The translations under genes and the position numbers were made by a program. The notes beneath the pieces are model-generated. The model was not told the origin of the DNA. It saw only the letters and a list, made by a program, of their open reading frames with translations, and ran no database searches. A stretch of 64,000 nt of DNA from contig JAKLDG010000001.1 in assembly GCA_022703645.1 (NCBI GenBank), positions 797,254 through 861,253 of the forward strand, given 5' to 3'. Source of the stretch: Patescibacteria group bacterium (lineage in GTDB: Bacteria > Patescibacteriota > JACPGU01). This document shows positions 3,143 through 52,181 of the stretch, in pieces. Every line of letters begins with the position of its first letter. The stretch's first letter is position 1.

Positions 3143-4039
3143 ATGGAACTGACTAATTTATTGCAATCGAAATCCTGGGAAGAATTCGAAAAGACTTTGG
3201 GTAATAAAACTTTTTGGGTTGATGATGCGCTTCTCATAAAAAACCCTCTGCCAAAGGGAATGTCTTATTTATATTGCCCGCGCGGACCGCGTGAGCTAAA
3301 TTCAGATTTTATCAAAAAAGCGACCGAGCTTGCAAAAAAAGAATCAGCAATATTTATACGAATTGAACCACTGGAAATACCCAATACTCAATGCTCAATG
3401 CCCAATTTGGTGAAGACAATAAATCTTAATCCTGCAAACACTCTGATTCTCGATTTGGCCAAGAGTGAAGATGCTCTCCTCTCTGAAATGAAACAAAAAA
3501 CTCGCTACAATATTAACCTTGCAATAAAAAAAGGGGTTGGAATCGAAGTAACTACTGATCCTGAAAAAGCTCAAATTTTTTACAATATTATGAAGCAAAC
3601 TTCTGCTCGTGATAAATTCGGAGCGCACTCTCTCGAGCATTACAAGAAATTACTTGAAGTCTTAGGTACAAATAAGATTATCCGTTTGTATTTGGCAAAA
3701 TATGAAGGAAGGTATATTGCCGCAAATATTGTTTCTTTTTTTGGCAACACTGTTTCCTATCTACACGGTGCTTCAGCAAACGAGTACCGTAATGTCATGG
3801 CCCCCTATCTACTTCAATGGGAAGCGATAAAGGATGCGAAAGTAGGCGAATATGAATACTATGATTTCTGGGGTATTGCTCCTGATGATTCACCAAAACA
3901 TAGGTGGTCAGGCGTAACACGATTTAAAAAAGGTTTTGGCGGTCAGCAGTTTGATTATCCAGGCACATATGATATTGTGATTTCAAAAAAGTGGTATTTT
4001 TTATACAAAGTTTTGCGCAAGTTAAACAGATTGTTCTAA
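3143..4039 (+). CDS. FemAB-family peptidoglycan-bridge aminoacyltransferase-like protein
   Basis: ~300 aa. Motifs resemble the FemX/FemAB family (SYLYCPRGP; ...APYLLQWEAIKDAKVGEYEYYDFWGI). The assignment is from motif memory, not a search. Confidence 0.55.
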   Translation: MELTNLLQSKSWEEFEKTLGNKTFWVDDALLIKNPLPKGMSYLYCPRGPRELNSDFIKKATELAKKESAIFIRIEPLEIPNTQCSMPNLVKTINLNPANTLILDLAKSEDALLSEMKQKTRYNINLAIKKGVGIEVTTDPEKAQIFYNIMKQTSARDKFGAHSLEHYKKLLEVLGTNKIIRLYLAKYEGRYIAANIVSFFGNTVSYLHGASANEYRNVMAPYLLQWEAIKDAKVGEYEYYDFWGIAPDDSPKHRWSGVTRFKKGFGGQQFDYPGTYDIVISKKWYFLYKVLRKLNRLF

Positions 4040-12441: not shown

Positions 12442-12918
12442 AGAATAGAATTTAGTATTTAGAATCTAGAATAACGAATTAGGAATGGTTTCTTGATCCT
12501 CTTATTAAACTATTTAATAATTTGTGAACATCTATACTTTTACTATATAAATTTGTAAATACTTCTTGATTTAGATAACCAATGTCCTTTCCTGCTATTA
12601 TTTGGTTTTGGACTTCAGTTACGGAACCGCTAGCGATATAATAAAACTGAATTTTTTCTTTATATGAATATCTTGTGAATCCTTCAGCTATGTTTGAAGA
12701 TATTGAAACAGCTGCTCTTCGAATTTGGCTTGTTAAACCATACATCTCATCTTTTGGGAAATCCTTTGTGGCATTATAAATCATTAAAACTAATTTATGC
12801 GCTTCCTGCCAAGTTCTTAAATCTGTAAAATTTTTAATCTTCTCTTTTTCTATATCCATTCTAAATCCTTTATTCGTTATTCTAAATTCCAGATTCTGTA
12901 TTCTAAATTCTTCCCCAT
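12442..12918. mobile_element. Candidate miniature insertion cassette: four-helix-bundle gene bracketed by ~38-bp imperfect inverted repeats
   Basis: Left flank 12455-12479 ...atttagaatctagaataacgaat. Right flank 12872-12909 attcgttattctaaattccagattctgtattctaaattct. A 13-nt perfect inverted core tagaataacgaat/attcgttattcta lies immediately outside the stop and start codons. Confidence 0.4.
12479..12859 (-). CDS. Four-helix-bundle protein (TIGR02436 family, the 23S-rRNA intervening-sequence protein type)
   Basis: 126 aa with TWQEAHKLVLMIYNATKDFPKDEMYGLTSQIRRAAVSISSNIAEG...YIASGSVTEVQNQI, the family consensus. It sits as a single gene between T4SS operon genes. Confidence 0.75.
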   Translation of the reverse strand: MDIEKEKIKNFTDLRTWQEAHKLVLMIYNATKDFPKDEMYGLTSQIRRAAVSISSNIAEGFTRYSYKEKIQFYYIASGSVTEVQNQIIAGKDIGYLNQEVFTNLYSKSIDVHKLLNSLIRGSRNHS

Positions 12919-13638
12919 CTAGATATTCATTTCTTTCGGCATTTTTTCAATCACCTCTGTTTCAAATTGTGATGCGTCAACTAATTTTTGCGCCGTACTC
13001 TGATCGGGATTATAAACACCATAAAATAGTTCAATCAATTCCTGCGTATCAAGCTGAATTGCGCGCACCCCAACTCCTTGCAGACCCATTGCTACTGTTT
13101 CAGCTTTTTGAATCAGATATTTTTTTTCATCAGCAAAACTCCCAACTGCAATAGCTCCTTTTCCTGCAGAAGAACTCCTTCCGACCGCTCCTACTTTTTT
13201 GAAAGCATTCGGATAGTGCGGGATAACAACGTAGAATCTTTTTTGCATAATATTTGTCTGCTGTATTATATTTTGCACAAATATAATATAGTCGCGAATT
13301 TGAATTTTTAGTAATTCGTTACTAATTTTTTTGGAATTTTCTGCTAATCCATCCAGATATCCTTCAAGATCAAGTTTGCGCGATTGGACTACTATTTGAA
13401 TAGGAAAGTCGAGAGAATTCAAGAATGATTGGAAACCGTAAATAATTCCGTTTCTTTCCAGCTCTGATTTTAATTCAAAGTTAACAGCAGAAGTGGAAAG
13501 TACCATACGCATACTTCCATCCTTCATTACGAGAATGCCCTCCTCAAAATGATCTATATCAATATAATATTGAGTCGAACCGGGTTTTGCGGGAGCAGTT
13601 TCTACCTGTCCCTTTTGTTTTTGTTCTTGAACTGCCAT
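12919..13638 (-). CDS. Hypothetical protein (239 aa) within the T4SS-like operon
   Basis: Co-oriented and tightly spaced with the VirB4 and VirB3-like genes; no assignable motif. Confidence 0.4.
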   Translation of the reverse strand: MAVQEQKQKGQVETAPAKPGSTQYYIDIDHFEEGILVMKDGSMRMVLSTSAVNFELKSELERNGIIYGFQSFLNSLDFPIQIVVQSRKLDLEGYLDGLAENSKKISNELLKIQIRDYIIFVQNIIQQTNIMQKRFYVVIPHYPNAFKKVGAVGRSSSAGKGAIAVGSFADEKKYLIQKAETVAMGLQGVGVRAIQLDTQELIELFYGVYNPDQSTAQKLVDASQFETEVIEKMPKEMNI

Positions 13639-18331: not shown

Positions 18332-19963
18332 ATGGAAGATGAAATAAAAACAAACCAAACTGGTTTATCAGGTGATACTCCCCCAAATATCCCGGTATCG
18401 CCAGAAATTAACACACCAGTACGAAACTTATCCACAGACCCCAAACCGGCAGAAAATATTGATGATCTTTTGAATGGTACTGCAAGTTCTCCAAAACCTG
18501 CATCTGAAAGCAGTTCTTTTTATTATAATCCGGCACAAACATCAGCACCAACAAGCACACCAATACCGCCAAAAGAAGCCTCTAGTATCGACGCTTTCAA
18601 TAAAAGAATGGCCAGCTCAAGATCCAGCGGCGAAGGCTCAGGCAACAAAAAAATGATCATTGGTATAATAATAGCCGTTGTGGTTGTCGCGCTCGCTATT
18701 GCAGGATATTTATTGTATTTAAATACAAAAAAATATTCTGTAACTATTAACGTAAATCCGCCTGAAGCTAATATCTCAATACCCGGATCTGCCAATGCCG
18801 CTGCCAAAAACGGTAAATTAGTCCTAAATCTTAAAAAAGGAACCTACTCCGTATCTATTTCGAAAGATGGCTACTCAACCTTGAAACAAACACTTAATGT
18901 AAAAGGATCCAGCAGTGTGAATTATAATCTCTCACAGTTTTTGACTTTCAGCCCCGTACTTGAACAGAATATAATGAGCCCAATTATTAATACTGAATTG
19001 GGAACTATTATTTATCTGGAAAAAGGCGAACAATGGACATCAATTAAGGAGTATAATTATAACTCCGATGATAAAAAAACAGTTATATTGGCGGATTCAT
19101 TGCCTGATATCAAAAAAATCACATGGTCCAAAACATATCGACAAGCAGCTGTAAGAATCAAAAATTCTGAACAAAATAATGGCTCATTACTTCCTTTTCA
19201 GGAACAATACGGCGAAGGAACGGAAATGAATTGGGTGATTGATCTTGACCGAAAAGATGTAGTAAATGTAAACGTTAAACCTCTTAGCCCAGATATAAAA
19301 AACATTACATTCAAACCTGACGGCACCAAGATTGCATACTATTATAATAATGGAACCAAAAAAACACTGGCGATAGCAAATATCGACGGTACTAACTACC
19401 AAAATATCGTTGATATCAAAACCATTCAATTTGATCCGGACGTAATCTGGTCTTCAGATGGGGTAAGAATAGCAATATTTGCAGATAATCCTGGCGGAGA
19501 AACGAACGTCTTCGCCTATAATTTCGAAACTAAAACCGAGATCGACCCAAATACCAATATTGAAACTCCTTCTGGATCAACAAGCGGAAGTAATGCAAAA
19601 CTTTCAACTGACAATATATCTTACGGAGCATTGTTTTCACCGTCAGCTAGCAAGATCATATTTAATTCCGGAGCAAAATTGAGTATTTATGATTTTGAAA
19701 AAGAGGCCGGTTCCGCGCTGCTTGATACTGGAGCAGAAGCAAAAATAACGAACTGCACTTGGTTATCAGATGATACAGTAATTGCCGTAACAGACAATAA
19801 GGAGTTAGTAAAAATTAAAACAACCGGTGAAAAAATCACAATCCAAATCAATCAAGAAGGATTGCCTGAGACAATCACCGGAATAATTAATGATGTTTCA
19901 AATGTTTATTTAATTGGTGACACGGGAATTTTCTCAACTCCTATCGCAAATTTAAATAATTGA
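18332..19963 (+). CDS. Membrane-anchored protein with PEGA-like domain and PD40/TolB-like beta-propeller repeats
   Basis: Low-complexity N-terminus, one TM (IIGIIIAVVVVALAIAGYLLYL), YSVTINVNPPEANISIPG...GTYSVSISKDGY (PEGA-like), later WSSDGVRIAIFAD... PD40-like motifs. Confidence 0.5.
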   Translation: MEDEIKTNQTGLSGDTPPNIPVSPEINTPVRNLSTDPKPAENIDDLLNGTASSPKPASESSSFYYNPAQTSAPTSTPIPPKEASSIDAFNKRMASSRSSGEGSGNKKMIIGIIIAVVVVALAIAGYLLYLNTKKYSVTINVNPPEANISIPGSANAAAKNGKLVLNLKKGTYSVSISKDGYSTLKQTLNVKGSSSVNYNLSQFLTFSPVLEQNIMSPIINTELGTIIYLEKGEQWTSIKEYNYNSDDKKTVILADSLPDIKKITWSKTYRQAAVRIKNSEQNNGSLLPFQEQYGEGTEMNWVIDLDRKDVVNVNVKPLSPDIKNITFKPDGTKIAYYYNNGTKKTLAIANIDGTNYQNIVDIKTIQFDPDVIWSSDGVRIAIFADNPGGETNVFAYNFETKTEIDPNTNIETPSGSTSGSNAKLSTDNISYGALFSPSASKIIFNSGAKLSIYDFEKEAGSALLDTGAEAKITNCTWLSDDTVIAVTDNKELVKIKTTGEKITIQINQEGLPETITGIINDVSNVYLIGDTGIFSTPIANLNN

Positions 19964-19979
19964 TATTATATTAAATCTC

Positions 19980-21362
19980 ATGAATGATAATGCAAAAAGC
20001 GGCCTGTTCTGTTGTTTACTGCCGGCAATTTTATACATTGCTATTATAGTAATGCTGTTGGCTTTTTTATTATCAATACTTTCCCGCTCCGGCGGGCCTT
20101 GTTCTGGTGTAAAAAGTTTTCTCTTCAATGTCGTTTTGACGGGTAATTCACAAGAAGCGAAAGATGCTCTCTGCGGAGCATCAAAAGAAGCTTTTGGCGC
20201 GCCACCGGATGCAGCCGCTGGTGCATATATTTATGATGGTGGAAACACATCAAGCTGCAGTAGCACAGGATTAATTAATACATCTCGCTACATTAATGAC
20301 CCAAATCTTCCAGGCTGGATAAAAGACGCGTCTGATAAATATTTTGGGGGCGACCAAGCATTATTAATTTCTATTATTCAGGTAGAGTCGGGCTGGAAAC
20401 CAAATGCATATAACCCTTCTTCCGCTACAGGACTGGGACAATTTTTGACAAGCACTGCACAAAACAGAAAATGGGTTGAATTCCATGGTGGTACTGACCC
20501 ACAAGGCAAGACTTGGCCATTCGGAACTATTTATACCGACAAACCACCACCTTCTAATGACGCAAGGTTTGATCCTGAAAGATCTTTATATGCTGGCGCA
20601 AGGTATTTCTCTGAAACAATGGGATACCCAGACCTACAAGGTTTTAAAGATTGTAAAGGTGCTACGGGAATTCAATTAGCTTATTGCGCATATATTTATC
20701 ATTATAATGGAGGATGTTATTTAAAACCCGGATCATCGACATATTCTGCCACCCAAAAAGACCTCTGCACAGCCGCAGTGAAGGCTGGTAATGAAATGAA
20801 AACTAATTATGCAAATCTTACTAGTAAAGGTCAGTGTGTTGCAATCGCAGGAGCACTTGCTGATGGCCCTATCGGACCACTTGTTTCCGGAAAATGCAGT
20901 GAAAGAATAATGTCCGAAGCTCAAAAATATATTGGGATACCATATAGCCAAGGCAAACCTACTGGTTCACCAAATGGACATTGCGGAACAAATTCGAATG
21001 GTCGCGAAGGGGTGGGCTCTTTGGGAATTGATTGCTCTGGTTTTGTAAGTAGAGTATATAGGGATTCAGGAATATTCCCAGAAAACAAAAGAGGGTTGTG
21101 GTGTAATACTACAGCAACATTGCCAGGTAACTCACTTTTACGTAGATTATCCGGTCCCAAGGAGCTAAAAACTGGTGATCTAATTGTTTCTCCTGGACAC
21201 GTTGTAATATTTATTTCAACAAACACTGATGGTTCAGCAAGGATCATTGAATCAGGTGGTAGTGACCCTGGAGGTGGAAGTGTAAGAATTACAACTAGAA
21301 GTAAGGTTAAGGCCTTTGATATCAAAAGAAATGTATATCTCCGAGCGCAGGCCTGTGAATAA
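19980..21362 (+). CDS. Bifunctional cell-wall hydrolase: lytic transglycosylase (SLT) domain plus C-terminal NlpC/P60 peptidase domain, N-terminal TM (VirB1/PrgK-like)
   Basis: SLT motif LISIIQVESGWKPNAYNPSSATGLGQF. NlpC/P60 catalytic Cys context IDCSGFVSRVY with downstream GDLIVSPGHVVIFI. Confidence 0.65.
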   Translation: MNDNAKSGLFCCLLPAILYIAIIVMLLAFLLSILSRSGGPCSGVKSFLFNVVLTGNSQEAKDALCGASKEAFGAPPDAAAGAYIYDGGNTSSCSSTGLINTSRYINDPNLPGWIKDASDKYFGGDQALLISIIQVESGWKPNAYNPSSATGLGQFLTSTAQNRKWVEFHGGTDPQGKTWPFGTIYTDKPPPSNDARFDPERSLYAGARYFSETMGYPDLQGFKDCKGATGIQLAYCAYIYHYNGGCYLKPGSSTYSATQKDLCTAAVKAGNEMKTNYANLTSKGQCVAIAGALADGPIGPLVSGKCSERIMSEAQKYIGIPYSQGKPTGSPNGHCGTNSNGREGVGSLGIDCSGFVSRVYRDSGIFPENKRGLWCNTTATLPGNSLLRRLSGPKELKTGDLIVSPGHVVIFISTNTDGSARIIESGGSDPGGGSVRITTRSKVKAFDIKRNVYLRAQACE

Positions 21363-21417
21363 AAAATAGGGAGTCGAATTGCGGCTCCCTATCCTATTGA
21401 ACTGTAAATTTAATTTT

Positions 21418-21975
21418 TCAACCAGCCCCCTCTCCACATCTCTCATAAGGGGTTTGCTTAATAAGATTTCCCGAGAAATCTCTTACCACATTTCTTCCTT
21501 TGTACAAAACTTGATTAGGGCACTTTCTGCTATTATCCACGATTTGATCAATCACTTTGTATGAAAAAAATTTACCCTTAAGTATAGGCAATGTGTCGAT
21601 ATTACTATTCTCGATCGTTTTAATCTTCTTGGCTCCAATATTATAGATAACAATAATTGTTGTCATAAGATCATCATTGCTATCGAGACCATCAAAAATA
21701 AAATTCTTACCATTGGGTGACCATAAAATATTCGCTGTGCTTTGGATTATAAAACGGCTATCCTTTTTGAACTTTGCAGCAACTTTAAATTTGCTATTTT
21801 TGACTGCAAGTTCTTTTACGCCAATATAACAGTAGTCACTCGGCTCACAGAAAACCGCGACCATCCACATCCCATTGGGAGATAGAAACTCAGATATTTT
21901 TTTTGCAGCCTGCACATCAGTTGATCTCAACATCAATGCAAATATAAAGAACATTATCGCAACAGTTTTTTTCAT
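21418..21975 (-). CDS. Secreted protein with PD40-like motif (paralog 1 of 3)
   Basis: Signal peptide MKKTVAIMFFIFALMLRSTDVQA; WSPNGKNFIF motif. Confidence 0.5.
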   Translation of the reverse strand: MKKTVAIMFFIFALMLRSTDVQAAKKISEFLSPNGMWMVAVFCEPSDYCYIGVKELAVKNSKFKVAAKFKKDSRFIIQSTANILWSPNGKNFIFDGLDSNDDLMTTIIVIYNIGAKKIKTIENSNIDTLPILKGKFFSYKVIDQIVDNSRKCPNQVLYKGRNVVRDFSGNLIKQTPYERCGEGAG

Positions 21976-22070
21976 AGTCAGTCTCCTCTTTTCTCTGGTT
22001 TTTTAAAACTACTGCTTTATTTTTGAATTTTCTTTTTGAAAAAGAAAATGTAATAAAAAGCTATAAAATA

Positions 22071-22099
22071 ATAATACCATATTTGGCTAAATATCGCAA
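22071..22099 (-). promoter_or_regulatory. Sigma70-like promoter (TTGCGA-17-TATTAT on minus strand) with palindromic operator ATATTTAGCCAAATAT in the spacer
   Basis: rc reads TTGCGAtatttagccaaatatggTATTAT. The whole ~110-bp upstream region is duplicated (~75% identity) at 23525-23650. Confidence 0.5.
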
Positions 22100-22174
22100 T
22101 TATTACCCTATTCATGAAATAATAGAGAGCCCGTGAGGACTCCCTAAAATTTTGATTTAAAAAAACTTTGTTAC

Positions 22175-22858
22175 TCAATTCCCTTCTGAATCATATTCTG
22201 ACGCATACTCAACCTTTTCGAATACCTTGATCGCACGCTTCGAAATCTGTCTTCCTTCAAATGAGAACTCATACATAATCGCGTCATAAAACGTTGTGTT
22301 TGCGCCATCGCTAAAGCCGCCATCGACCCCAGATTGGTAGTCTTGAATGCATATAGAGAAAGAGTTTTTGTGCATAAAAATCTTTCCCTCGGGATTATAT
22401 GACACATCACCTTTTTTATCAGGAGCACAAAATCCCTCATGACTGCCGGGAGAGATAATGCTCTTTCCGAATACTCCTCCTTTTTCAGTGTCATACAAAG
22501 TTACATTTGAGTCATGGAGTGGAGTCCCGACTTTCAGAAAGACAAAATATCTACTGTCAGCTGACCATACTGGTTTACCAATAAACAGGGTGTGGTACTT
22601 CGCATATTCCTTTTTTTTGTCAAAGAAATATCCATCGGTTATAAGATAACTTTGCCCATTCATCTTCATATGAAAAGTACAGACAGTCTTATATTGAATA
22701 GTATTATTGGCAGCGCATACACTCTTTTCATAAGCTTCTTTGCAGTTGTGAACAGCTTTTTTCTTCCCGTCCGGTGAGGGATAAGAAGAGTTTGTGGCTC
22801 TTGCAATCCCTCCAAAAATAATCGACAGCACCACAGCAAACAAAATAATTCTTTTCAT
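22175..22858 (-). CDS. Secreted protein with PD40-like motif (paralog 2 of 3)
   Basis: Signal peptide MKRIILFAVVLSIIFGGIARA; WSADSRYFVFL...LYD motif; 28-bp spacing to the upstream paralog (operon). Confidence 0.5.
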   Translation of the reverse strand: MKRIILFAVVLSIIFGGIARATNSSYPSPDGKKKAVHNCKEAYEKSVCAANNTIQYKTVCTFHMKMNGQSYLITDGYFFDKKKEYAKYHTLFIGKPVWSADSRYFVFLKVGTPLHDSNVTLYDTEKGGVFGKSIISPGSHEGFCAPDKKGDVSYNPEGKIFMHKNSFSICIQDYQSGVDGGFSDGANTTFYDAIMYEFSFEGRQISKRAIKVFEKVEYASEYDSEGN

Positions 22859-22886
22859 TTCACTTTCTCCTTTTTGGATTTTTTTC

Positions 22887-23513
22887 TTACGGACAGTTTT
22901 CTATCGCAATATCCGCGCGAACCGTATGTTCTCTTTCTTTCCAAGATACTTTCTTTCCAGTTGCAAGATTTATTTGGAATTTTGTCGCTTTCCACCCGCT
23001 CTCACAATCAGCTTCACCCATTAGTGATAAGTGAAAATAGGTAAGCAATCCATCAGAAAAACGAACAAAACCCGGATAAGGAACGAATGATTTTTCTTTC
23101 GCTTTCGAAAGATATTTCTCGGAAATAAATCCAATGGTGTTGTCTACCACAGGATCATTATTGTTGAATGTATCCACTATCTTCCCGCTGCCGGTTTTCA
23201 AATCATAGAGAAAAAGATATGCTTCCCGAGAATTTTCCGATCCTGCTATGGCGATATAGCGTCCGCCCGGATCCCATGTAACTTCTGATCTTGGAACGCT
23301 TTCACCGGAAATACTAAATATCTGTTTTCTTGATTTTTGTGTTACGTTTCGAAGATAGTACCGACATGACCACGAACTTTCCCACGAGCCAGAACACTCC
23401 TTGTTTACCATAGCGCCACTTTTACTGACGTAATCTTTGTTGTCTTTTTCGGCCATGGCGTAAACCCCAAAAAAGAAAGCAAACAGAAAAACAAACCCGC
23501 AAATCCTTTTCAT
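22887..23513 (-). CDS. Secreted protein with PD40-like motif (paralog 3 of 3)
   Basis: Start moved to MKRICGFVFLFAFFFGVYAMA (rc of 23511-23513), preceded by a gggggaagga SD. WDPGGRYIAIAG...LYD motif. Confidence 0.5.
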   Translation of the reverse strand: MKRICGFVFLFAFFFGVYAMAEKDNKDYVSKSGAMVNKECSGSWESSWSCRYYLRNVTQKSRKQIFSISGESVPRSEVTWDPGGRYIAIAGSENSREAYLFLYDLKTGSGKIVDTFNNNDPVVDNTIGFISEKYLSKAKEKSFVPYPGFVRFSDGLLTYFHLSLMGEADCESGWKATKFQINLATGKKVSWKEREHTVRADIAIENCP

Positions 23514-23609
23514 TTCCTTCCCCCTTTTTTTTAATTTATTTTTTAAAACTGCTGCTTTTTTAATAACCTTTTCCACAAAAAAATAAATAAGTAAAAAGCT
23601 ATCGAACCA

Positions 23610-23638
23610 ATTATATTATATTTGGCTAAATATAGCAA
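23610..23638 (-). promoter_or_regulatory. Second copy of the sigma70-like promoter (TTGCTA-17-TATAAT) with the same palindromic operator ATATTTAGCCAAATAT
   Basis: rc reads TTGCTAtatttagccaaatataaTATAAT, with the same geometry as the 22071-22099 copy. Confidence 0.5.
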
Positions 23639-23786
23639 CATTTTTCTCGTTTAAAAAAAATAAATTTTATTAAAAAAACGCTAAAAAGCTACTTACATTG
23701 TGCCGGGTTTTTGGATACAATGAATATGGACAAGTGCGTCTATCTATTTTTGCGTATAAAAATATATTTTATTTATTTATAATTTT

Positions 23787-26700
23787 TTGTTCATGCCTGA
23801 AAAAGAAGAAAACCAAAACAAAAGCCAGACATCAAAAACTCCTGAAGCTGAAAAAGCTGCGTCATCAAACGCACTCCAAAAACAAGCGAGTGGTTCTTCT
23901 GGCGCAAATACCGGCATACCAACAGTCGGCAAAACAGCGAATAGCCCAACTGGGGGAATTGCTTCGAGTGGATCTGCGGGGGGAAGGGCTGGTGGTGCAA
24001 TTGGTGGTAATGCAGGGAAAGCAGTTGGCGGGGCGGCAGGAAAAGCCGGAGGAGGACCAGCTGGCGATGTACAAGATTATGCAAAAGGTGCAAAGGCCGC
24101 TGGGAAAGCAGCAATGGAAGGCGCAACAACCCCCGAAGATGAGGAAGCAATGGGAAGAGCCGCAGCCAAAGCAGCTGCTACAGCAGTAGCCGGAACGGCA
24201 GGAACAAAAGCACTAGAAACGGCTGAAAAAGTCCCGATCGCTGGAGAGCAACTGAAGAAAATATACAGTAAAGCAGGTAAGACAATATCGACCTCAATTA
24301 AAGTTATATCCTTTCTTATACTTCTGATTTTTGGCATGACTGCCATTATATTCTTTGCAATTATAAGCAGCATCAATAATGGATCAACCGGACAGACTGC
24401 GCCACAGAAAGCTGATCTCAATAACCCAACTCAGCGATCTGCCCTACATATTGTCCAAGCTTACACAGGTGATCAAGATATGAAAAGAGAAGCTGTTAAT
24501 GATATTTCCGAAGGGTTGATGACTAAAATTAGTACTGTTAAAGGAATACAAAACGCTGTTCCCATCAACCTTCCTTCAACAGTTTATGCAGAATCAGAAA
24601 GCGATGTTGATGAAACAGGCATTGACATTAAAGAAGACGGAACAAGTAACATACCAAGCAATGAGGTGAATCTAGATGAACAGGTTATTGATGAAACGAC
24701 TCAAGATTTACAATCTACTATTTTAGCCCTTAATACGGCTGACGATCAGAGCCCAGCAGGCATTACAGCTTTGAAAACAAAAGTTCAAGTATGGAAAAAC
24801 AGCCTCAGCGAAAGCGAAAAGACAAAATATAAAAACGAAATAGAAGAAATTGATAAAGATATCGGGCGCCTAACGGTTATAGCTTCCATAGGATCAACCG
24901 CAAAGTTAGTAATACCGGCAGCAGACCTGGCTTATATTAGAAATAATGAGGTTGATATTCGAGTAGTCCAAGCTTTAAATTATCTTGTTACCCCAAGAAA
25001 TCTCGGTGGAGCAGGATACAGAAAGATTAAGGTTAGGAGAATAAAAAGCCAGTACGACAGCAATAAAAGAAAGTTTGACCGAGAATGGTATGAGCCAGAA
25101 GATGCGGAGGAAGTTGTCAGCGCCCATTTCGAGGGACAGGCTTTTGATATATCAGGAATTGACTATGCTGAAAGAAGACTCTACAAAAAAAGAGTTATAA
25201 AGAAGATGAGTAAAACAGAACCTCGCCCGCCAGTTGATATTATGGTTGTTGACCAATCAACAAAACTTGGTAAGTCTGATGCTTTCGGAACATCGAACAG
25301 CAGCACTGGAAACACATTTGGAACGCTTTTTGAAAATCAAGCCTTGAGCGAACTATATTCAACAATCGCAGAAAACACCGGCTACGATTTCTCTCAATAC
25401 GACATCCGTGGCAGTAATCTGAATGATGCTGTGAAAACTATTGGTATTGTGGCTCTTGGCGAAGAACTTGGAATAAAAATTGATCCAATTCAAGATAATT
25501 CTTCATCAGAAAAATTCTTTTCTAATCTGGGAGGAAATCTAGTTTCAAGCTGCCTTGATATACCCGAAAGCGCTCTTAACATAGATAATCCTGAAGAAAT
25601 AACCAGCAACATAGGAAGGGAAACGATTGCCCAAAGAATGAAAATAGAAGCGCTATCTTTAAGTGGAAATACCTCTGCGGAGATACTTGAAAGTGTCGGC
25701 AAGAGAAAAATTGAAAAAAATCTAGGGATAAGAATTGGCTCACTAAACTATATGAGCGCAAACGATACGATCTTTGCTTACATTGGGCAAGTTATTGTAG
25801 AACAAACTCTTAATCTTGCAGGTGGTACATTTGCTGGCAACAACATTGACTCTATCAAGGAAAAAATTGGTGGTGATAGTTTTAATAGTATTTTTGCTAA
25901 TGATCCGGGGCAAATAGATGCTATTTTGAGCTTACCAATAGATGATGGCGACACTCAAAAACTCTTGGATAAAGAAGAGTCCCCTATTCAATATAAAGAA
26001 AAAATTGGCAGAGTTATTATCCAAGCAAAAGTATCGAATTATAAAAACCACAATACTGTCGGAGAAATAAAAAAAGTCAGTAGTGATAATATATTTGGTC
26101 GGTGCGGAGGAATGTTTAACCGAAACGCAAATCTTATTTCTTCTGAAAATGATTGTTACCTAATGCAAACAAGTAATACCCAGCAAAACCAACAAGATGA
26201 GGCTTTTGATATCCCAGAAGGTAGCGCCGCAAGATTGTTCCCAGAAAATGGAAGGTCGGATTTTCAAACTTTTCATGATATTGGGGTTGATGAGGTGGCG
26301 AAAAGACTAACTGATATCGAGGAAGAAAGACAAGAAATAAGAATGTGGTTAACTGAATATAAAGACAAACAGCTTGGAGAACTAACCTTCCTGCGCATCA
26401 GTGATGTTTTGGACAATATCACGGATCTTGAGAAAAAAATAAAGATTATCAGAGACAAAGGAGAAAAAACCACACAAGAAGAAAAAGATAACCTAAGTGA
26501 TTATACTTCACGACTGGAAAAGATTTCATGGGTAAGAAGCGCGGTCAGTCTGTCCAGCCCCAGTAGCATAGATGCTCTTCAGATTACTCTCGCCAAAAAT
26601 ATTGAGGAAGGAATCGATGGCGAAAATGCCTCAGAAATTCAGGCAAATCTCGATGGTTTCAATAGAGCACTGAATAAATATGAAATCTACAAGAAACAAT

Positions 26701-29700
26701 TATTTAATGACTATACTGAAGAAAAAAAACAAAGCCAGTTAGAAATGGCGAATTTTGCTGCTAATTTAATATTATTAGGAGGAAAGTTAACTGATGGAAA
26801 ATGGACATTTGGCAATTCGGATTTATTCACGGTAATTACAGAGGACCCATTGAACCAGTTGCTTGGATTACCAAATAACTCAGTATCAAAAATATTCAGA
26901 ACGGACAGCGGGTCAGATGTTTTTTATACTGTCGGAGAAAATAAAATTGAAGATGCAGATTACAAGCAAAATAATAACTACAAATCACGGGCGCTATCTC
27001 GGATGCAATTTCTTGAAACCCAAATAGATGCTAGTAATAAGAAAATTGAGGAACTAAAAAAAATAATGGGGCAGGATGCCAGCAGCCAAATTAAAATGTA
27101 TGAAAATAGTATTGCGGTTCTGCAGGATCAAGAAGCCATGGAGCAGGCAAACGCGCTAAGAGATAATAGCACCGCCGAAGAAATGGCAACCAAGAGAAAG
27201 AAAAGCGAATCTCTTGGAATAAAATGTTCCGATCTAAATATAAAAGATATTCTCAACGACCCCTCAAATCAAATCATAAAAATTGGCGCGAGTAAATTAG
27301 AGTCTTCATTGGAATTGCCGAGCGGTTCATTGGCAAACCAAGCAACAAATAGTGAAGAAGAATATCCTATTGATTACATTCCTGAACCAGAAGTGAGTCC
27401 TTCGGCGACAACTAAAGCACAGGGTAGTTTATTTGATAGTTCGGGTATTGGAGCTGCAAAAATAGAGGAGATACTCGAAATGCCAAGTGGGATTTTTGTC
27501 GGCACTGAATTATCGGAACTAATATATAACCTTGGTGGGGAAGAGACGCTATACAAATATTTCGCTCCAGATAATAGCTATGAAGAAATCCAAACCCAAC
27601 TGCCAATCAGCGCAACAAGCGAAGAATGGTTCCGTTCGATTTTCAAAAATACCGACGCAAAGTTAGGAATTGATGAGGGTTCAACATATGATCTTTTTGT
27701 TGAAGCTTTAACCCCAAATGAATATGCTGCTATAGTTGGCAAAAGCCATCTTGAAGGAGAAGGCCGAGATATAATTTCAAAAGAATTAAATTTAAATATC
27801 GGTGGATATGGAATTGGTTATGATGACATACAAAGCCTCTTAAAGGGCGATTATATAGGGGTTGCTCTAAAGCTTGGAGCGAAGACAATGGATGAGGGAA
27901 TGGATCTGCCTGAGGGAACAACAGACGGTTTGATTGACGATCCAGGCGCTGATTGCACCATCCAAAATGATGAGACAGGAACTATAGATAGTTGTATCTC
28001 TGGTATTCTTGAGGCGAGCGGAAAAGAAAAGCTTGCTGAGTATATGCACGTATACTCCCAAGCTACAATATCTGATAATACATCCGAAAACCTCGGACAA
28101 ACAAAAATTGAGGAAACATTAAATGAGATTCATCCTAACCCCGATCTCCCGCAAGGCTGGCTATCGGGCGCGAATTTGACTCAGGTAGTCGAAAATATCG
28201 CGCGCCTCAACAACGACAACCTGATGAAAAACATGGCTAAATATGATGCACAAACAATGAAGGATTCTGAAAATGCCATGTTACAAAAATTTGGATTTGA
28301 TCTGGAAGATACGACACAAAACACAGTAAAATCTCTACAAAAAAATGGCTTTGCATTAAATTCGCCTGCTTATATCGTCGCTAAAACGCTGGACGAACAA
28401 TTGAAAATTCCAGTCGGAACAACAGCGCAACTTTTCCAGGGGAAAATGACCTTGAAGAAATTCAAGAATATTGTTTATAAGAAATACTCTCAAAATGAGG
28501 TTAAGACTTTTATTTATGGTAAGCTATTTGATGACGAAACTATCAGCACCATGGAAAAACTTGGTATTAGCCAGGATTCGGTATTGGAATTTGCCACTGA
28601 TTTGGCAAACGGTGGTACAAAAACAAAGGATATGTTGGAGGCAAATAAAGATAAGATAACTGGAATTCTTTCACAGGGCAACGGTAGTGACGCATGGGGA
28701 GAAATGACAATTGAAAGCAGGCTTGACCCTGGAAAAAAATTGAAAAGCGGATGGTTTGCTGGCAGTACACTTCAAGATGTAAAACTCAATATTGCCGCAT
28801 TGATGAATGCGCCAGAAACCCTGCCAGCTGGTCTTACTTGGGACACATGGAGAAAAACCCTGGTAGCCAATACTGCCAGCTGGATGACATCAGCAGAAAA
28901 AAATCTCTTGGCAGCCTTCCAGATTACTGACGGTCAATTCCAAAACCTGAAAGCAATAAAAGACTTTGATTTTACGACAAGCGAAGGAAAACAATCATCA
29001 GCCTATAATGCTTTCTTGGCAGACGATTCATATTTCAGCTTGAAACCCGAAACAACATTGAAACTTTTTAAGGGAGAGATTAGTATTACAGACTACACAC
29101 ACAGAGTTCAAACTGCATACGCAACACACAAAGCAACTAGCGCAGCGGTCAAACAATTTCTACCGGAAAATGTTCAAGATGTTTTGAACCGGCATGGTTT
29201 ATCACCAGAAGATGTTGTTTACGGTATAAAAAATCCTGAAACCCTTTTTACCAAAGTCCTTATGACATCTATGTCAGAAAAAGAAATGGGAATATTGGTT
29301 GGTTTGGGTTCTGTTTTTGAAGGAACCAAATTCGGCGCAGGAATAGACCAAATAAAAGGAGAGTTTACCGATAATCTCGCTCAAAAGAAAATAGAACAAA
29401 CACTCGGTCTGATACCAGGAACATTTTCCAAAGACTCTTCACTCGAAGCGATAATGGAAGCTAATGGTGTCGCCAAATTTGCCGCAGCATTTCGAATTAA
29501 TACCAATTACAGCGAGTCGGAAGCCAACTTAAGAACTTTTTTGAAAAATTCTGTTTTTAGAAAAGATATTAATTCTCCTTATTGGAGTCAGACCACAAAT
29601 ATTTCGCGATCCACAACGGTAGATAATCTATTGGAAATATTAAACGTTGAAACGCCAAGAGGAAGCACAACTCCAACTAAAGCGCTACTACAAAAAGAAA

Positions 29701-31916
29701 TTAGTATTACTGACTATATTGAGCTAGTGAGAAAATCCGCGTTCACTCAAGTCGCTAAACCCGGATTTCTTACCGGTCTTGCGGCTTCGCTAGTAAGCGG
29801 AGGAATGGGAGACCAGAATGATCCGAAAACTCAAAAAATAATGAGTTACGCCAACCTGCTAACAAATGTTTATGAAACACTCAAAGATCCAAAATCATTA
29901 AGGAAAGATAAAGAAAAACAAGCCACGCTTTTTGCTTCTTTACAATCAGTAAGTGGCTTTGATCTCGATGATAAGGCTGGCTTTACGACAGGAACAATTG
30001 AAAACCTCATTAAATATCCCAATGAGGCGCCATCGATACTTCTCGCTCAGGGACTGCGCGGATTATCTGAAAAAATATTCGGTGAAAAAGACACTGGACT
30101 AAATGAACTTTTGACTCTTTTCCAATATTATATACCGACCGATATTTTAAACCCGGGTTTTTATTTTGGCGATGCCGAGATAAAAACAGATGCAGCAGAC
30201 AGCTGCCCAATAGGAAGTAAGGACCTATCGGAAGAAGAGATGGTTAATTTTGTAAAAAATAACAGAAGCCGCTGCGGACAATTAATTTTGAACACTACGC
30301 TCAAAGGTTTTATTGAGAATACTACAGCAGTTAAACAAGACATAATAAACCCTGATACCGGGGAGGTTACTGAGGGAGACGTGATAGTGCCTGGAATCCA
30401 ATTACCAGACAAAGATCTAGAAAATCTGAAAAAAGGCGACATGAAGATCTTTACCGCCATGAGTATCACAAACATGGTAAACCGCGCAAACACACAACTG
30501 GACGAGGAGGGGCATAACTCCCAGATAATACCTGCGGGATTCCAATTAAATTATGAGGATGTTGCCGCCGCAATGGGGCTGCGCAGCAAACTTACTGCAA
30601 GTGAAGAATCAAAAATGAGAGATGACTTTACACAAGATTATATAGAAAAAAATGGTATCCCACTTTTGCCAAATGACCTAAAAGAATATAAAAACGCCGA
30701 GAATCAATATATTTTAGACCACTCTGTTAATATAAAATCTATTGCGCGGAAAAATATGATCAATGGTTATATGGATGCGCAATTAATGGCTACGTTTAAA
30801 GTACGCGGTGTTACCCCAATACTACCCGGGTTTACTGCTGCAATGTTTAGCGGCAATGATAAAGATAGAAATAATATGCTTTTGGCTTGTGGTATTAATT
30901 ATGCGATAAGTACTACGGGTGTATTGGGACCAGACATAACCAACAACGCCTACATTATGGATGCGCTTAATTCGTTCACTGAAACTCGTGATATTAATAA
31001 GCTCAAGGAAAGTTTTGCCAGCAGAGAAGGTATCCAAAATACTGTCTTCAGTTTTGTTGACCAAGGTTTATCCAAAAAGCTCGGTATTGAACTACCCCCA
31101 GACACAGCAAAAAATCTCTTTAGCTATCTTACTACTGGGAAATTTAGCACCCCTGGTTTTAGTAAAGACACTATACAGGGTCAGGTATATGGATTAATAG
31201 ACAAACAAATTGGTCTTCCTTCGGGGACAACAGGGTCGCTTATTTCAAACTATAAGCAATTTGCAGCTGGAAACATGTCTCCGACACAATTTCTCCTCGT
31301 TGCTGTTCAATTACTTTTTGGTAAGGCACTGATGAAGGCAGATGCTGAGCTTGGGGTGCCACCCGGAACATTGTCAGCTGCAATTGGTGTTGGTGTTGCT
31401 TATCTGGCTATGACACAAATCGCCGCTAGTGTTGCCGCAGGATCAGTTAGCGCAGGATCATTTGCCGCTACCATGGGTCCGATAGGTCTCTATATAGCTG
31501 CCGCCATGTTTGTCTACACTTTAGTATTTGGATTTTCGAAAATAGAAATGCAGATGACGTGCCCTGGAGACCCGAGCTTTATTGCCGGTGGTCCAACAAC
31601 TCAATGGTGTAGAGCAGAAGAAGAGATGCCGCAACTTTTAACTTCCTGGGCACAAATAAATATACGGCGACTCATTGAAGATATGCTGCGAATAGATGAA
31701 CCGACGAGAACAAATGACCCCAACCTTTTCCCTACGATAATGGGTACTTTCCGGAAAGAAGACGTTGACTATTTCCATGGTCAAGAAACGCTTTCAAACG
31801 GTCAAAAAAGCCCTGGTCTTGCTGACGAAAAATATTCGCGCTATGAGGTATTTAGAGGAATGAGAGATCTTTGGCAGAGTGATTATATGGGCGACTTTGT
31901 TCACATTGGATATTAA
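23787..31916 (+). CDS. Giant membrane/surface protein (2709 aa)
   Basis: Gly/Ala-rich low-complexity N-terminus (locally GC-rich DNA 23900-24240). TM near residue 175 (ISFLILLIFGMTAIIFFAIISSI). Huge hydrophilic body with a recurring degenerate motif LG(I/L/V)P(S)GT..L and repeated KGEISITDY blocks. C-terminal TM cluster (AVQLLFG...AIGVGVAYLAMTQIAASVAAG...GLYIAAAMFVYTLVFGF). Confidence 0.7.
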   Translation: MFMPEKEENQNKSQTSKTPEAEKAASSNALQKQASGSSGANTGIPTVGKTANSPTGGIASSGSAGGRAGGAIGGNAGKAVGGAAGKAGGGPAGDVQDYAKGAKAAGKAAMEGATTPEDEEAMGRAAAKAAATAVAGTAGTKALETAEKVPIAGEQLKKIYSKAGKTISTSIKVISFLILLIFGMTAIIFFAIISSINNGSTGQTAPQKADLNNPTQRSALHIVQAYTGDQDMKREAVNDISEGLMTKISTVKGIQNAVPINLPSTVYAESESDVDETGIDIKEDGTSNIPSNEVNLDEQVIDETTQDLQSTILALNTADDQSPAGITALKTKVQVWKNSLSESEKTKYKNEIEEIDKDIGRLTVIASIGSTAKLVIPAADLAYIRNNEVDIRVVQALNYLVTPRNLGGAGYRKIKVRRIKSQYDSNKRKFDREWYEPEDAEEVVSAHFEGQAFDISGIDYAERRLYKKRVIKKMSKTEPRPPVDIMVVDQSTKLGKSDAFGTSNSSTGNTFGTLFENQALSELYSTIAENTGYDFSQYDIRGSNLNDAVKTIGIVALGEELGIKIDPIQDNSSSEKFFSNLGGNLVSSCLDIPESALNIDNPEEITSNIGRETIAQRMKIEALSLSGNTSAEILESVGKRKIEKNLGIRIGSLNYMSANDTIFAYIGQVIVEQTLNLAGGTFAGNNIDSIKEKIGGDSFNSIFANDPGQIDAILSLPIDDGDTQKLLDKEESPIQYKEKIGRVIIQAKVSNYKNHNTVGEIKKVSSDNIFGRCGGMFNRNANLISSENDCYLMQTSNTQQNQQDEAFDIPEGSAARLFPENGRSDFQTFHDIGVDEVAKRLTDIEEERQEIRMWLTEYKDKQLGELTFLRISDVLDNITDLEKKIKIIRDKGEKTTQEEKDNLSDYTSRLEKISWVRSAVSLSSPSSIDALQITLAKNIEEGIDGENASEIQANLDGFNRALNKYEIYKKQLFNDYTEEKKQSQLEMANFAANLILLGGKLTDGKWTFGNSDLFTVITEDPLNQLLGLPNNSVSKIFRTDSGSDVFYTVGENKIEDADYKQNNNYKSRALSRMQFLETQIDASNKKIEELKKIMGQDASSQIKMYENSIAVLQDQEAMEQANALRDNSTAEEMATKRKKSESLGIKCSDLNIKDILNDPSNQIIKIGASKLESSLELPSGSLANQATNSEEEYPIDYIPEPEVSPSATTKAQGSLFDSSGIGAAKIEEILEMPSGIFVGTELSELIYNLGGEETLYKYFAPDNSYEEIQTQLPISATSEEWFRSIFKNTDAKLGIDEGSTYDLFVEALTPNEYAAIVGKSHLEGEGRDIISKELNLNIGGYGIGYDDIQSLLKGDYIGVALKLGAKTMDEGMDLPEGTTDGLIDDPGADCTIQNDETGTIDSCISGILEASGKEKLAEYMHVYSQATISDNTSENLGQTKIEETLNEIHPNPDLPQGWLSGANLTQVVENIARLNNDNLMKNMAKYDAQTMKDSENAMLQKFGFDLEDTTQNTVKSLQKNGFALNSPAYIVAKTLDEQLKIPVGTTAQLFQGKMTLKKFKNIVYKKYSQNEVKTFIYGKLFDDETISTMEKLGISQDSVLEFATDLANGGTKTKDMLEANKDKITGILSQGNGSDAWGEMTIESRLDPGKKLKSGWFAGSTLQDVKLNIAALMNAPETLPAGLTWDTWRKTLVANTASWMTSAEKNLLAAFQITDGQFQNLKAIKDFDFTTSEGKQSSAYNAFLADDSYFSLKPETTLKLFKGEISITDYTHRVQTAYATHKATSAAVKQFLPENVQDVLNRHGLSPEDVVYGIKNPETLFTKVLMTSMSEKEMGILVGLGSVFEGTKFGAGIDQIKGEFTDNLAQKKIEQTLGLIPGTFSKDSSLEAIMEANGVAKFAAAFRINTNYSESEANLRTFLKNSVFRKDINSPYWSQTTNISRSTTVDNLLEILNVETPRGSTTPTKALLQKEISITDYIELVRKSAFTQVAKPGFLTGLAASLVSGGMGDQNDPKTQKIMSYANLLTNVYETLKDPKSLRKDKEKQATLFASLQSVSGFDLDDKAGFTTGTIENLIKYPNEAPSILLAQGLRGLSEKIFGEKDTGLNELLTLFQYYIPTDILNPGFYFGDAEIKTDAADSCPIGSKDLSEEEMVNFVKNNRSRCGQLILNTTLKGFIENTTAVKQDIINPDTGEVTEGDVIVPGIQLPDKDLENLKKGDMKIFTAMSITNMVNRANTQLDEEGHNSQIIPAGFQLNYEDVAAAMGLRSKLTASEESKMRDDFTQDYIEKNGIPLLPNDLKEYKNAENQYILDHSVNIKSIARKNMINGYMDAQLMATFKVRGVTPILPGFTAAMFSGNDKDRNNMLLACGINYAISTTGVLGPDITNNAYIMDALNSFTETRDINKLKESFASREGIQNTVFSFVDQGLSKKLGIELPPDTAKNLFSYLTTGKFSTPGFSKDTIQGQVYGLIDKQIGLPSGTTGSLISNYKQFAAGNMSPTQFLLVAVQLLFGKALMKADAELGVPPGTLSAAIGVGVAYLAMTQIAASVAAGSVSAGSFAATMGPIGLYIAAAMFVYTLVFGFSKIEMQMTCPGDPSFIAGGPTTQWCRAEEEMPQLLTSWAQINIRRLIEDMLRIDEPTRTNDPNLFPTIMGTFRKEDVDYFHGQETLSNGQKSPGLADEKYSRYEVFRGMRDLWQSDYMGDFVHIGY

Positions 31917-51270: not shown

Positions 51271-51466
51271 AATGGGCTTTAATTGAAAATGCGCGAACCT
51301 TTTTCAAATCTAAAAACTGAATTTCTGAATTGCATTTTGGGCGGAGCAATTCTGGGTGGGGGGCAGAATGCTCCGCCCAAAAACCCCGAATCCGAATTTT
51401 CCGCTCAATTTTCCGCCGCCGCTTCTTGCCGCAATTTAGGAAATTGCGGCTATTTTGAAATTTTGA
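51271..51466 (+). repeat. Inverted repeat A (left copy, ~196 bp) with GC-rich long hairpin plus terminator-like hairpin
   Basis: The reverse complement recurs at 54374..54569: ~150 nt identical apart from 1 mismatch. A 15-bp stem gggcggagcaattctg/cagaatgctccgccc has one bulge. The second hairpin ccgcaatttaggaaattgcgg is followed by a T-rich tail. Confidence 0.85.
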
Positions 51467-52175: not shown

Positions 52176-52181
52176 GTATTT

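What the first reader, a model, noticed from the sequence alone, without database searches (positions are those of the whole stretch)
21418..23650. Three paralogous secreted PD40-motif proteins under duplicated promoters that carry a conserved palindromic operator (ATATTTAGCCAAATAT) exactly in the -35/-10 spacer
Genes 21418..21975, 22175..22858 and 22887..23513 each encode a signal-peptide protein with a WSxDG(R/K)Y...LYD PD40-like motif. Two ~110-bp upstream regions (21990-22130 and 23525-23650) are ~75% identical. On the coding strand both read TTGC(G/T)A-tatttagccaaatat(gg/aa)-TAT(T/A)AT, so an imperfect palindrome sits in the 17-bp spacer. That is the classic position for a repressor operator. 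A related half-site (TTTAGCC) forms a perfect palindrome upstream of the GNAT gene at 52091-52105. Together this suggests a small regulon of secreted proteins controlled by one DNA-binding factor.
Basis: seen in the sequence. Interest (0 to 1): 0.65.

Follow-up and report, generated by a model that had tools for sequence, protein, structure and literature searches.

The report
Duplicated promoter cassette driving orphan secreted proteins
Two copies of one ~100-base promoter-plus-leader segment drive three orphan secreted proteins inserted in the type IV secretion locus of an ultrasmall (Patescibacteria) bacterium; the short palindrome inside the promoters could be a repressor site, but no test here supports that or a wider regulon.

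Summary
The sequence facts hold. Three minus-strand genes (C 23513-22887, B 22858-22175, A 21975-21418) have signal-peptide-like N-termini. They form two transcription units, C-B and A. Each unit follows a sigma-70-like promoter, TTGC(T/G)A-17-TAT(A/T)AT, with ATATTTAGCCAAATAT in the spacer.

The two upstream regions are truly homologous: 81 of 105 columns, blastn E=3e-13, running from the -35 hexamer to about 23 nt before the ATG.

- The palindrome has only 6-bp A/T arms. Such repeats occur in 2-5% of intergenic windows.
- It is not better conserved than the rest of the cassette.
- No further copy sits in a promoter in 82.6 kb of this genome or in 80 related loci.
- The GNAT "half-site" 7-mer occurs at chance frequency.
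- No conserved leader RNA structure was found.
- The proteins have no homologues among 5.8 billion proteins. Only A and C are marginally similar. C, and weakly A, carry a beta-propeller blade motif; B is at noise level.
- The trio is absent from the same position in a related genome.

Best reading: a retained or propagated promoter-leader cassette co-expresses a lineage-specific secreted-protein module. An operator is possible (about 0.25-0.3). A regulon is unsupported.

The parts
23539..23638 (-). Promoter-leader cassette copy 1 (P1 plus the conserved part of the 5' leader of gene C)
   Evidence: It is homologous to 21999-22099: 81/105 columns, blastn E=3e-13. An nhmmer profile of the cassette finds only these two copies in 1.43 Mb.
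23610..23638 (-). P1: -35 TTGCTA (23638-23633), 17-nt spacer, -10 TATAAT (23615-23610)
   Evidence: The consensus scan gives 10/12 matches. The sequence was read directly. No transcription start data exist.
23618..23633 (-). 16-mer ATATTTAGCCAAATAT (imperfect dyad ATATTT-N4-AAATAT), covering the last base of the -35 hexamer and 15 nt of the spacer
   Evidence: Exact match. In this copy the arms extend to 7 bp (TATATTT/AAATATA).
22887..23513 (-). Gene C: 208-aa orphan secreted protein (ATG start; annotated elsewhere from GTG 23576 as 229 aa, or as 189 aa)
   Evidence: It has a signal-peptide-like N-terminus and the RBS GGGGGAAGG. The word-index search of 5.8 billion proteins returned only itself. 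Residues 60-125 match WD40/PD40 repeat proteins. The AF2 model is all-beta (pLDDT 60, pTM 0.60) and its best PDB matches are beta-propellers, though weak.
22175..22858 (-). Gene B: 227-aa orphan secreted protein, second gene of the C-B unit (28-nt gap, own RBS AAGGAG)
   Evidence: Pfam PD40 E=0.31 and Kazal_2 E=0.007, both below their cut-offs. The AF2 model is unusable (pLDDT 45).
22123..22146 (-). Intrinsic terminator after gene B
   Evidence: Terminator scan: 10-bp stem with 5 GC pairs, followed by TTATTT.
21999..22099 (-). Promoter-leader cassette copy 2 (P2 plus the conserved part of the 5' leader of gene A)
22071..22099 (-). P2: -35 TTGCGA (22099-22094), 17-nt spacer, TG-extended -10 TATTAT (22076-22071)
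   Evidence: The consensus scan gives 9/12 matches and a TG before the -10.
22079..22094 (-). 16-mer ATATTTAGCCAAATAT in P2
   Evidence: Exact match.
21418..21975 (-). Gene A: 185-aa orphan secreted protein (HRY59958.1)
   Evidence: It is marginally similar to gene C (z 2.3-2.8) and has the same four-Cys layout: 43, 49, 152, 180 against 40, 50, 170, 207. It gives a weak hit to the profile of the locus-linked propeller proteins (E=0.023 among 93 ORFs).
21360..21391 (-). Hairpin TAGGGAG...CTCCCTA followed by TTTTTT on the minus strand: terminator of gene A
   Evidence: Read directly in the sequence. The scan did not list it because the loop is longer than 8 nt.

Best explanation
The window comes from the chromosome of a Patescibacteria (CPR) metagenome-assembled genome. 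The finding lies inside its monoderm-conjugation-type type IV secretion (T4SS) locus near dnaA.

Three lineage-specific orphan genes sit on the opposite strand between the VirB1-like SLT+NlpC/P60 hydrolase gene and a 2709-aa giant-protein gene. They encode Sec-exported, Cys-containing, mostly beta proteins. They form two transcription units: C-B (P1, with a terminator at 22146-22123) and A (P2, with a terminator at 21391-21360).

P1 and P2, with about 70 nt of leader, are two copies of one ~100-nt sigma-70-type promoter-leader cassette. Third codon positions of A and C are saturated, yet the cassette is still 77% identical. So the cassette has either been kept by selection or gene conversion since a promoter-plus-gene duplication, or it was copied later in front of the second unit.

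The functional result I infer is that both units are transcribed from the same promoter type and are co-expressed. The 16-bp dyad is part of that promoter's spacer. It may be bound by a dimeric repressor (my estimate 0.25-0.3), but nothing measured here requires that.

Shown: gene structure, cassette homology, absence of homologues, absence from the syntenic site in a relative. Inferred: promoter activity, secretion, co-expression.
For: - Context: PrgI, a TrsD-like protein, a VirB4-like ATPase, an SLT+NlpC/P60 hydrolase, T4SS pilins, dnaA and dnaN. This matches the published Patescibacteria T4SS layout (PMC12102498).
- Promoters and terminators.
- Cassette homology: E=3e-13, 81/105 columns, against a 62% maximum for other intergenic 100-mers.
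- Only two copies are found in 1.43 Mb.
- A versus C coding sequence: 27% amino-acid identity, 40% nucleotide identity, and 28% at third positions against 27% expected at random.
- No homologues: and no tblastn hit in 80 related T4SS loci.
- In relative L138 the PEGA/propeller gene directly abuts the giant-protein gene.
- Beta-propeller-blade similarity.
Against: - There are no transcription data, so promoter activity, start sites and co-expression are inferred from consensus matches. Such matches are common in this AT-rich DNA: 35 found against 24 expected in 8 kb.
- Homology begins exactly at the -35 hexamer, and 15 of 17 spacer bases are identical. This would also fit selection on a spacer-specific binding site.
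- Relaxed ATATTT-N4-AAATAT sites are mildly enriched: 10 extra sites against about 5 for control arrangements.
- Only about 9.5% of the genome could be examined.
Confidence: 0.6

Rival explanations
1. One reading: the 16-bp dyad is the operator of a dimeric DNA-binding repressor. The repressor occludes RNA polymerase at both promoters and controls a small regulon of secreted proteins, including the GNAT gene.
For: - The dyad ATATTT-N4-AAATAT has half-site centres about 10 bp apart and sits between -35 and -10 in both promoters.
- 15 of 17 spacer bases are identical, although synonymous sites of the downstream genes are saturated.
- The relaxed dyad with a 4-nt gap is the most frequent of 39 gap and orientation combinations in 82.6 kb: 12 against about 5.
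Against: - A 6-bp-arm inverted repeat occurs in 2-5% of intergenic 17-21-nt windows, so 1-2 of the roughly 45 promoter regions would carry one by chance.
- The two copies are not independent.
- The palindrome is not more conserved than the rest of the cassette (26% of shuffles; Fisher p=0.20).
- No further site lies in a promoter spacer in 82.6 kb. Near-matches are FemAB coding sequence.
- TTTAGCC is at chance frequency.
- The GNAT palindrome has a different structure and lies -17 to -4 from the ATG, inside a segment flanked by inverted repeats.
- No candidate regulator lies nearby.
Confidence: 0.25
2. Promoter propagation: the cassette is a 'putative mobile promoter' doublet. It was copied on its own in front of a gene unrelated to the first. 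Genes A and C share no ancestry and the palindrome is a passenger.
For: - The best 50-column window is 82% identical, which meets the criterion of more than 50 nt at 80% or higher with non-aligning flanking coding sequences (PMC3488235).
- Homology stops about 23 nt before the ATG, and the coding sequences do not align at the nucleotide level.
Against: - A and C show marginal protein similarity, the same four-Cys layout and the same blade motif. This fits a joint promoter-plus-gene duplication better.
- Overall identity of 77% is below the 80% threshold.
- There are no terminal repeats or transposase, and only two copies were found.
Confidence: 0.2
3. The conserved leader blocks (ATAGCTTTTTA and AAAGCAGYAGTTTTAAAAAA) act at the RNA level, as a structured 5' UTR, attenuator or protein-binding site. 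They, rather than the spacer palindrome, are the reason the cassette is conserved.
For: The block AAAGCAG(T/C)AGTTTTAAAAAA is 19/20 identical and ATAGCTTTTTA is 11/11 identical, with a variable stretch between them.
Against: - Neither leader folds better than its shuffles (z -0.68 and +0.64).
- The consensus structure energy is only -3.55 kcal/mol, with a single compensatory pair from two sequences.
- There is no Rfam match.
Confidence: 0.1

Closest known systems
Putative mobile promoters / duplicated promoters (Matus-Garcia et al. 2012, PMC3488235)
   Same: An intragenomic pair of ~100-nt upstream regions is homologous although the downstream coding sequences do not align at the nucleotide level. 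It is a doublet, the commonest family size in that survey.
   Different: Overall identity is 77%, against about 92% for typical doublets. The downstream proteins may be very distant paralogues. The two copies lie 1.5 kb apart in one gene cluster.
Steric-occlusion repressor operators overlapping the -35/-10 region (for example phage cI/Cro-type operators; own knowledge)
   Same: A ~16-bp dyad with half-sites one helical turn apart, lying between the two promoter hexamers.
   Different: No binding protein, no second independent site and no preferential conservation. The arms are only 6 bp of A/T and the centre is asymmetric.
MerR-type promoters (dyad in the spacer; own knowledge)
   Same: A dyad located in the spacer.
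   Different: MerR-type promoters have over-long spacers of 19-20 bp. Here the spacer is the optimal 17 bp.
Patescibacteria MPF-FATA-like T4SS loci near dnaA (PMC12102498)
   Same: VirB4-like ATPase, TrsD-like protein, PrgI/VirB3, VirB1-like hydrolase and VirB2-like pilins near dnaA and dnaN. No relaxase was seen in the window.
   Different: The three small secreted genes and their promoter cassette are not described there. They are absent from the syntenic site of a related genome (L138).
PD40/TolB-type and WD40 beta-propeller repeats (PF07676, TIGR02800)
   Same: They share the blade motif W-S/D-P/A-x-G/S-K/R-Y/N-F/I ... LYD. Gene C matches repeat units of WD40/PD40 proteins. The neighbouring PEGA protein carries a TolB-like propeller (E=6e-9).
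   Different: They score below the Pfam threshold. At 160-205 mature residues they are too short for a closed 6-8-blade propeller. The model has only about 11 strands and low confidence.

Membership tests
PD40 repeat (Pfam PF07676) / TolB-like beta-propeller | Match to the family HMM at or above the gathering score (20.9 bits) | tested here: not met
   B scores 11.5 bits (E=0.31). A and C get no hit. NCBIfam gives none.
PD40 repeat (Pfam PF07676) / TolB-like beta-propeller | Several tandem four-stranded blades closing into a propeller | tested here: inconclusive
   The AF2 model of C is all-beta with 11 strands, pLDDT 60 and pTM 0.60. Its best PDB matches are all propellers, but with TM 0.25-0.36 and E about 1e-3. 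The model of B is unusable.
PD40 repeat (Pfam PF07676) / TolB-like beta-propeller | Sequence similarity to bona fide propeller repeat proteins | tested here: met
   This holds for C only. There are 79 hits at E<=1e-3, each matching C residues ~60-125 to repeated units. Seven of the 8 checked are WD40/PD40 proteins. The profile of locus-linked propellers gives C E=1.6e-4, A 0.023 and B 0.45.
Paralogous gene family (A, B, C) | Pairwise similarity above chance | tested here: not met
   BLASTP E values are 0.25, 0.14 and 7. Smith-Waterman scores against 500 shuffles give A-C z=2.3-2.8 (marginal), A-B 0.07 and B-C 0.69.
Repressor operator within a promoter | Dyad symmetry overlapping the core promoter elements | tested here: met
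   ATATTT-N4-AAATAT lies in the 17-nt spacer of both predicted promoters. The chance rate is 2-5% per window.
Repressor operator within a promoter | Conservation above the surrounding non-coding DNA | tested here: not met
   The 16-nt identical run is reached in 26% of shuffles. Core against rest gives p=0.20.
Repressor operator within a promoter | Further sites at other promoters (regulon) | tested here: not met
   None was found in 82.6 kb of this genome or in 1.35 Mb of related loci.
Repressor operator within a promoter | A cognate DNA-binding protein that binds the site | not testable with these tools
   No helix-turn-helix gene lies adjacent to the trio. The only ones in the window belong to the recombinase region at 54-57 kb.
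Putative mobile promoter (PMC3488235) | More than 50 nt aligned at 80% identity or higher upstream of genes | tested here: met
   The best 50-column window is 82% identical. The whole 105 columns are 77% identical.
Putative mobile promoter (PMC3488235) | Downstream and upstream coding sequences do not align | tested here: inconclusive
   There is no nucleotide alignment, and third positions are at the random level. A and C proteins are marginally similar.
MerR-type promoter | Over-long spacer of 19-20 bp carrying the dyad | tested here: not met
   The spacer is 17 bp in both copies.
Cis-regulatory leader RNA / riboswitch | Match to a known RNA family, or a stable conserved structure | tested here: not met
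   Rfam gives no match. Fold z-scores are -0.68 and +0.64. The consensus structure energy is -3.55 kcal/mol.

The most novel reading that the evidence does not exclude
The ~100-nt cassette is under strong purifying selection because it carries the binding site of an unidentified regulator (the 16-bp dyad) and a leader element. Together these would couple expression of a fast-evolving, lineage-specific set of secreted beta-propeller-like proteins to the activity of the Patescibacteria T4SS, for example on host contact. As far as I found, it would then be the first cis-regulatory element defined for this T4SS. The trio would be T4SS-associated host-interaction factors, or inhibitors of the adjacent cell-wall hydrolase.
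Probability: 0.15. Interest if true: 0.55.

Novelty: new member of a known kind. Interest (0 to 1): 0.3.

Why it matters
Regulation in Patescibacteria is almost unknown. Their chromosomal T4SS is reported as essential for epibiotic growth in the one genetically tractable lineage (as cited in PMC12102498).

A promoter-leader cassette conserved far beyond the coding sequences it drives gives a concrete handle for a reporter or pull-down experiment. It also marks three orphan secreted proteins as candidate accessory factors of the T4SS locus.

As it stands, this is an ordinary duplicated promoter with an unproven palindrome. Its value is as a lead, not a discovery.

Tried and rejected
1. Genome-wide motif test. 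The genome is not among the GTDB representatives (no relative of the hydrolase was found). The JGI scan with TTGCNATATTTAGCCAAATAT returned 8 unrelated chance or coding hits and not the window's own locus.
2. Strain variation for footprinting. Every other assembly of the locus is 100% identical. P0084 differs only in how the GTG start is translated.
3. Orthologue footprinting. Genes A, B and C have no homologues. The cassette is absent from 80 related loci.
4. Near-matches to the 16-mer in the closest relatives (L136, L137) and at window 3688. All are one FemAB coding motif, YLAKY.
5. Leader RNA structure and Rfam. Both negative.
6. GNAT link. The half-site is at chance frequency.
8. Kazal_2 hit in B (E=0.007, 16.9 bits against a cut-off of 22.8). 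Below threshold and not pursued.
9. Relation of the trio to the neighbouring PEGA/TolB-like propeller. Only motif-level similarity.
Full report
**What is in the sequence**

Region 21360-23640 holds three minus-strand ORFs: C (23513-22887, 208 aa from the ATG), B (22858-22175, 227 aa) and A (21975-21418, 185 aa).
- Each starts with MK(K/R), a hydrophobic stretch and an AxA-type cleavage motif.
- Each is preceded by a Shine-Dalgarno sequence.
- C and B are 28 nt apart and are followed by a terminator at 22146-22123.
- A has its own upstream region and a hairpin plus T-run at 21391-21360.

The consensus scan finds TTGCTA-17-TATAAT at 23638-23610 and TTGCGA-17-TATTAT, with a TG extension, at 22099-22071. 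The 16-mer ATATTTAGCCAAATAT occupies the last base of each -35 hexamer and 15 of the 17 spacer bases. It occurs exactly only at these two places in the window.

**The duplication is real**

The two upstream regions align from the -35 hexamer to about 23 nt before the start codon (21999-22099 against 23539-23638).
- blastn gives 76% identity over 104 columns, E=3e-13.
- A global alignment gives 81 of 105 columns identical.
- The same aligner gives a mean of 50% and a maximum of 62% for 1306 other intergenic 100-mers.
- Conserved blocks are the promoter core (25/29), ATAGCTTTTTA (11/11) and AAAGCAGYAGTTTTAAAAAA (19/20). A variable middle separates them.
- A profile of the cassette finds no third copy in the window, in 18.5 kb of flanks, or in 80 related loci, 1.43 Mb in all.

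The annotated GTG start of gene C at 23576 lies inside this non-coding homology. The ATG at 23513, with its RBS and signal peptide, is the better start.

**Is the palindrome more than chance?**

- The arms are 6 bp of A/T (7 bp in copy 1) around a non-symmetric AGCC.
- A 6-bp-arm inverted repeat occurs in 2.1-4.9% of 17-21-nt intergenic windows here. One or two of the roughly 45 intergenic regions would carry one by chance.
- The two copies descend from one sequence and count once.
- Given 77% identity, an identical run of 16 is reached in 26% of column shuffles.
- The promoter core is not significantly better conserved than the leader (Fisher p=0.20).

The palindrome itself therefore carries little statistical weight.

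The cassette as a whole, however, is far above neutral. Protein-guided alignment of A and C gives 27% amino-acid identity, 40% nucleotide identity and 28% third-position identity. The random expectation for third positions is 27%.

**Regulon test**

- With up to 3 mismatches the window has 12 matches against 3.1 expected. Apart from the two cassette sites these lie in coding DNA or lack a promoter context.
- The site at 3688, and the near-matches in the two closest relatives (L136, L137), are one homologous FemAB coding motif: TAT TTn GCn AAA TAT, which encodes YLAKY.
- Flanking DNA recovered from other assemblies adds nothing (L130 1-9552; L133 12085-21101).
- The relaxed dyad ATATTT-N4-AAATAT with up to 1 mismatch occurs 12 times in 82.6 kb, against about 5 for other gaps and orientations. 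This is a mild excess, but none of the extra sites lies in a -35/-10 spacer.
- TTTAGCC occurs 10 times against 7.9 expected.
- The GNAT palindrome TTTAGCCGGCTAAA sits at -17 to -4 from the ATG. It lies inside a 3-kb segment flanked by 159-nt inverted repeats, next to serine recombinase genes.
- The rest of the genome could not be reached. The regulon is therefore unsupported, not disproved.

**Leader RNA**

- There are no Rfam matches.
- Neither leader folds better than its shuffles (z -0.68 and +0.64).
- The two-sequence consensus structure is negligible (-3.55 kcal/mol).

**The proteins**

- The word-index search of 5.8 billion proteins returned only each protein itself, for all three.
- Pfam and NCBIfam give nothing above threshold. 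PD40 gives E=0.31, for B only.
- Pairwise BLASTP is not significant.
- Against shuffles, only A-C is marginal (z 2.3-2.8). A and C also share a four-Cys layout.
- An exhaustive phmmer search with C finds 79 weak hits. In each, residues ~60-125 match repeated units; 7 of the 8 checked are WD40/PD40 propeller proteins.
- The AF2 model of C, built from a 3-sequence alignment, is all-beta (pLDDT 60, pTM 0.60). Its best PDB matches are exclusively beta-propellers, but they are weak.
- The model of B is unusable.
- A profile of the T4SS-linked PEGA/TolB-like propeller proteins ranks C, A and B directly after the self hit among 93 window ORFs. The E values are 1.6e-4, 0.023 and 0.45; B is at noise level.

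In short, C, and probably A, carry propeller-blade-like units. Shared ancestry of all three is not shown.

**Context**

The window is Patescibacteria chromosome. It carries polA, murC-like, dnaA, dnaN and yidC genes together with a T4SS set: a VirB4-like ATPase, a TrsD-like protein, PrgI, an SLT+NlpC/P60 hydrolase and pilins. This is the layout described in PMC12102498. That paper reports nothing on promoters or on these small genes.
- In relative L138 (VirB4 67% identical), the PEGA/propeller gene directly abuts the giant-protein gene, with no hydrolase and no trio between them.
- In a Berkelbacteria genome (L140) the order is hydrolase, PD40-like membrane protein, then a giant-like protein.

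The trio is therefore a lineage-specific insertion among conserved T4SS-associated genes.

**Interpretation**

The best-supported reading is that one promoter-leader cassette, present twice, co-expresses a lineage-specific module of secreted proteins.

The cassette either descends from a promoter-plus-gene duplication (C and A) and was kept by selection or gene conversion while the proteins diverged beyond recognition, or it was propagated later. It marginally meets the published 'putative mobile promoter' criterion.

A repressor binding the dyad is compatible with the geometry, but no independent test supports it (my estimate 0.25-0.3). A regulon that includes the GNAT gene is unlikely.

**Verdict**

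Novelty is low to moderate: a new member of a known kind. Interest is 0.3.

Noticed in passing
window 52148-52268 (+): A promoter TTGACT-17-TATTAT (52148-52176) has the perfect palindrome TTTGCCGGCAAA in its spacer. It is followed by an ~80-nt transcript ending in the terminator ACCAGATTCTTTCTGGTTTTTTT. The 86-nt RNA folds at -30.7 kcal/mol (z=-4.6, 0 of 200 shuffles as stable) and has no Rfam match. It is a candidate new small RNA.
   Followed up: partly
window 51271-51429 / 54411-54569 and 54567-54714 / 56181-56328: There are two adjacent pairs of long inverted repeats (159 nt at 99%; 148 nt at 100%). The second pair brackets the large serine recombinase gene at 54783-56330. Contig L131 from another sample carries 54567-56299 in the opposite orientation. 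This may be invertible segments, or an assembly ambiguity at a repeat only slightly longer than k=141.
   Followed up: partly
window 18332-19963 (+): A membrane-anchored PEGA-domain protein has a TolB-like beta-propeller (TIGR02800 E=6e-9) with PD40-type motifs. It is conserved next to the giant-protein gene in relatives L136 and L138, and a shorter propeller protein holds that position in Berkelbacteria L140.
   Followed up: partly
window 23514-23576 and 21934-21975: Start-site disagreements exist in public annotations. Gene C is called as 229 aa (GTG at 23576, inside the non-coding cassette homology) or as 189 aa. Gene A is called as 171 aa, which loses the signal peptide. The ATG starts at 23513 and 21975 have an RBS and a signal peptide.
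   Followed up: yes
window 3688-3703; L136 20036-20051; L137 11757-11772: The closest matches to the 16-mer outside the cassette are one conserved coding motif of the FemAB-family gene (YLAKY). This is a caution for any motif scan.
   Followed up: yes
window 22027-22049 (-): The gene A leader contains a 21-nt palindrome, TTTTCTTTTTCAAAAAGAAAA, which is absent from the gene C leader.
   Followed up: no
window 23787-31916 (+): A 2709-aa protein with no Pfam domain is transcribed divergently from gene C. Its N-terminal region is conserved in L138 (33% over about 700 aa) and partly in Berkelbacteria L140.
   Followed up: partly
L136 2354-3702 (+): The closest relative has four tandem ORFs of about 110 aa between the GGDEF gene and the homologue of the 945-aa membrane protein. 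This array is not present in the window.
   Followed up: no
window 12919-13638 (-) and 12479-12859 (-): A TrsD-like protein (homologous to the VirB4 N-terminus) lies upstream of the VirB4-like ATPase, with a '23S rRNA intervening sequence protein' four-helix-bundle gene between them.
   Followed up: no
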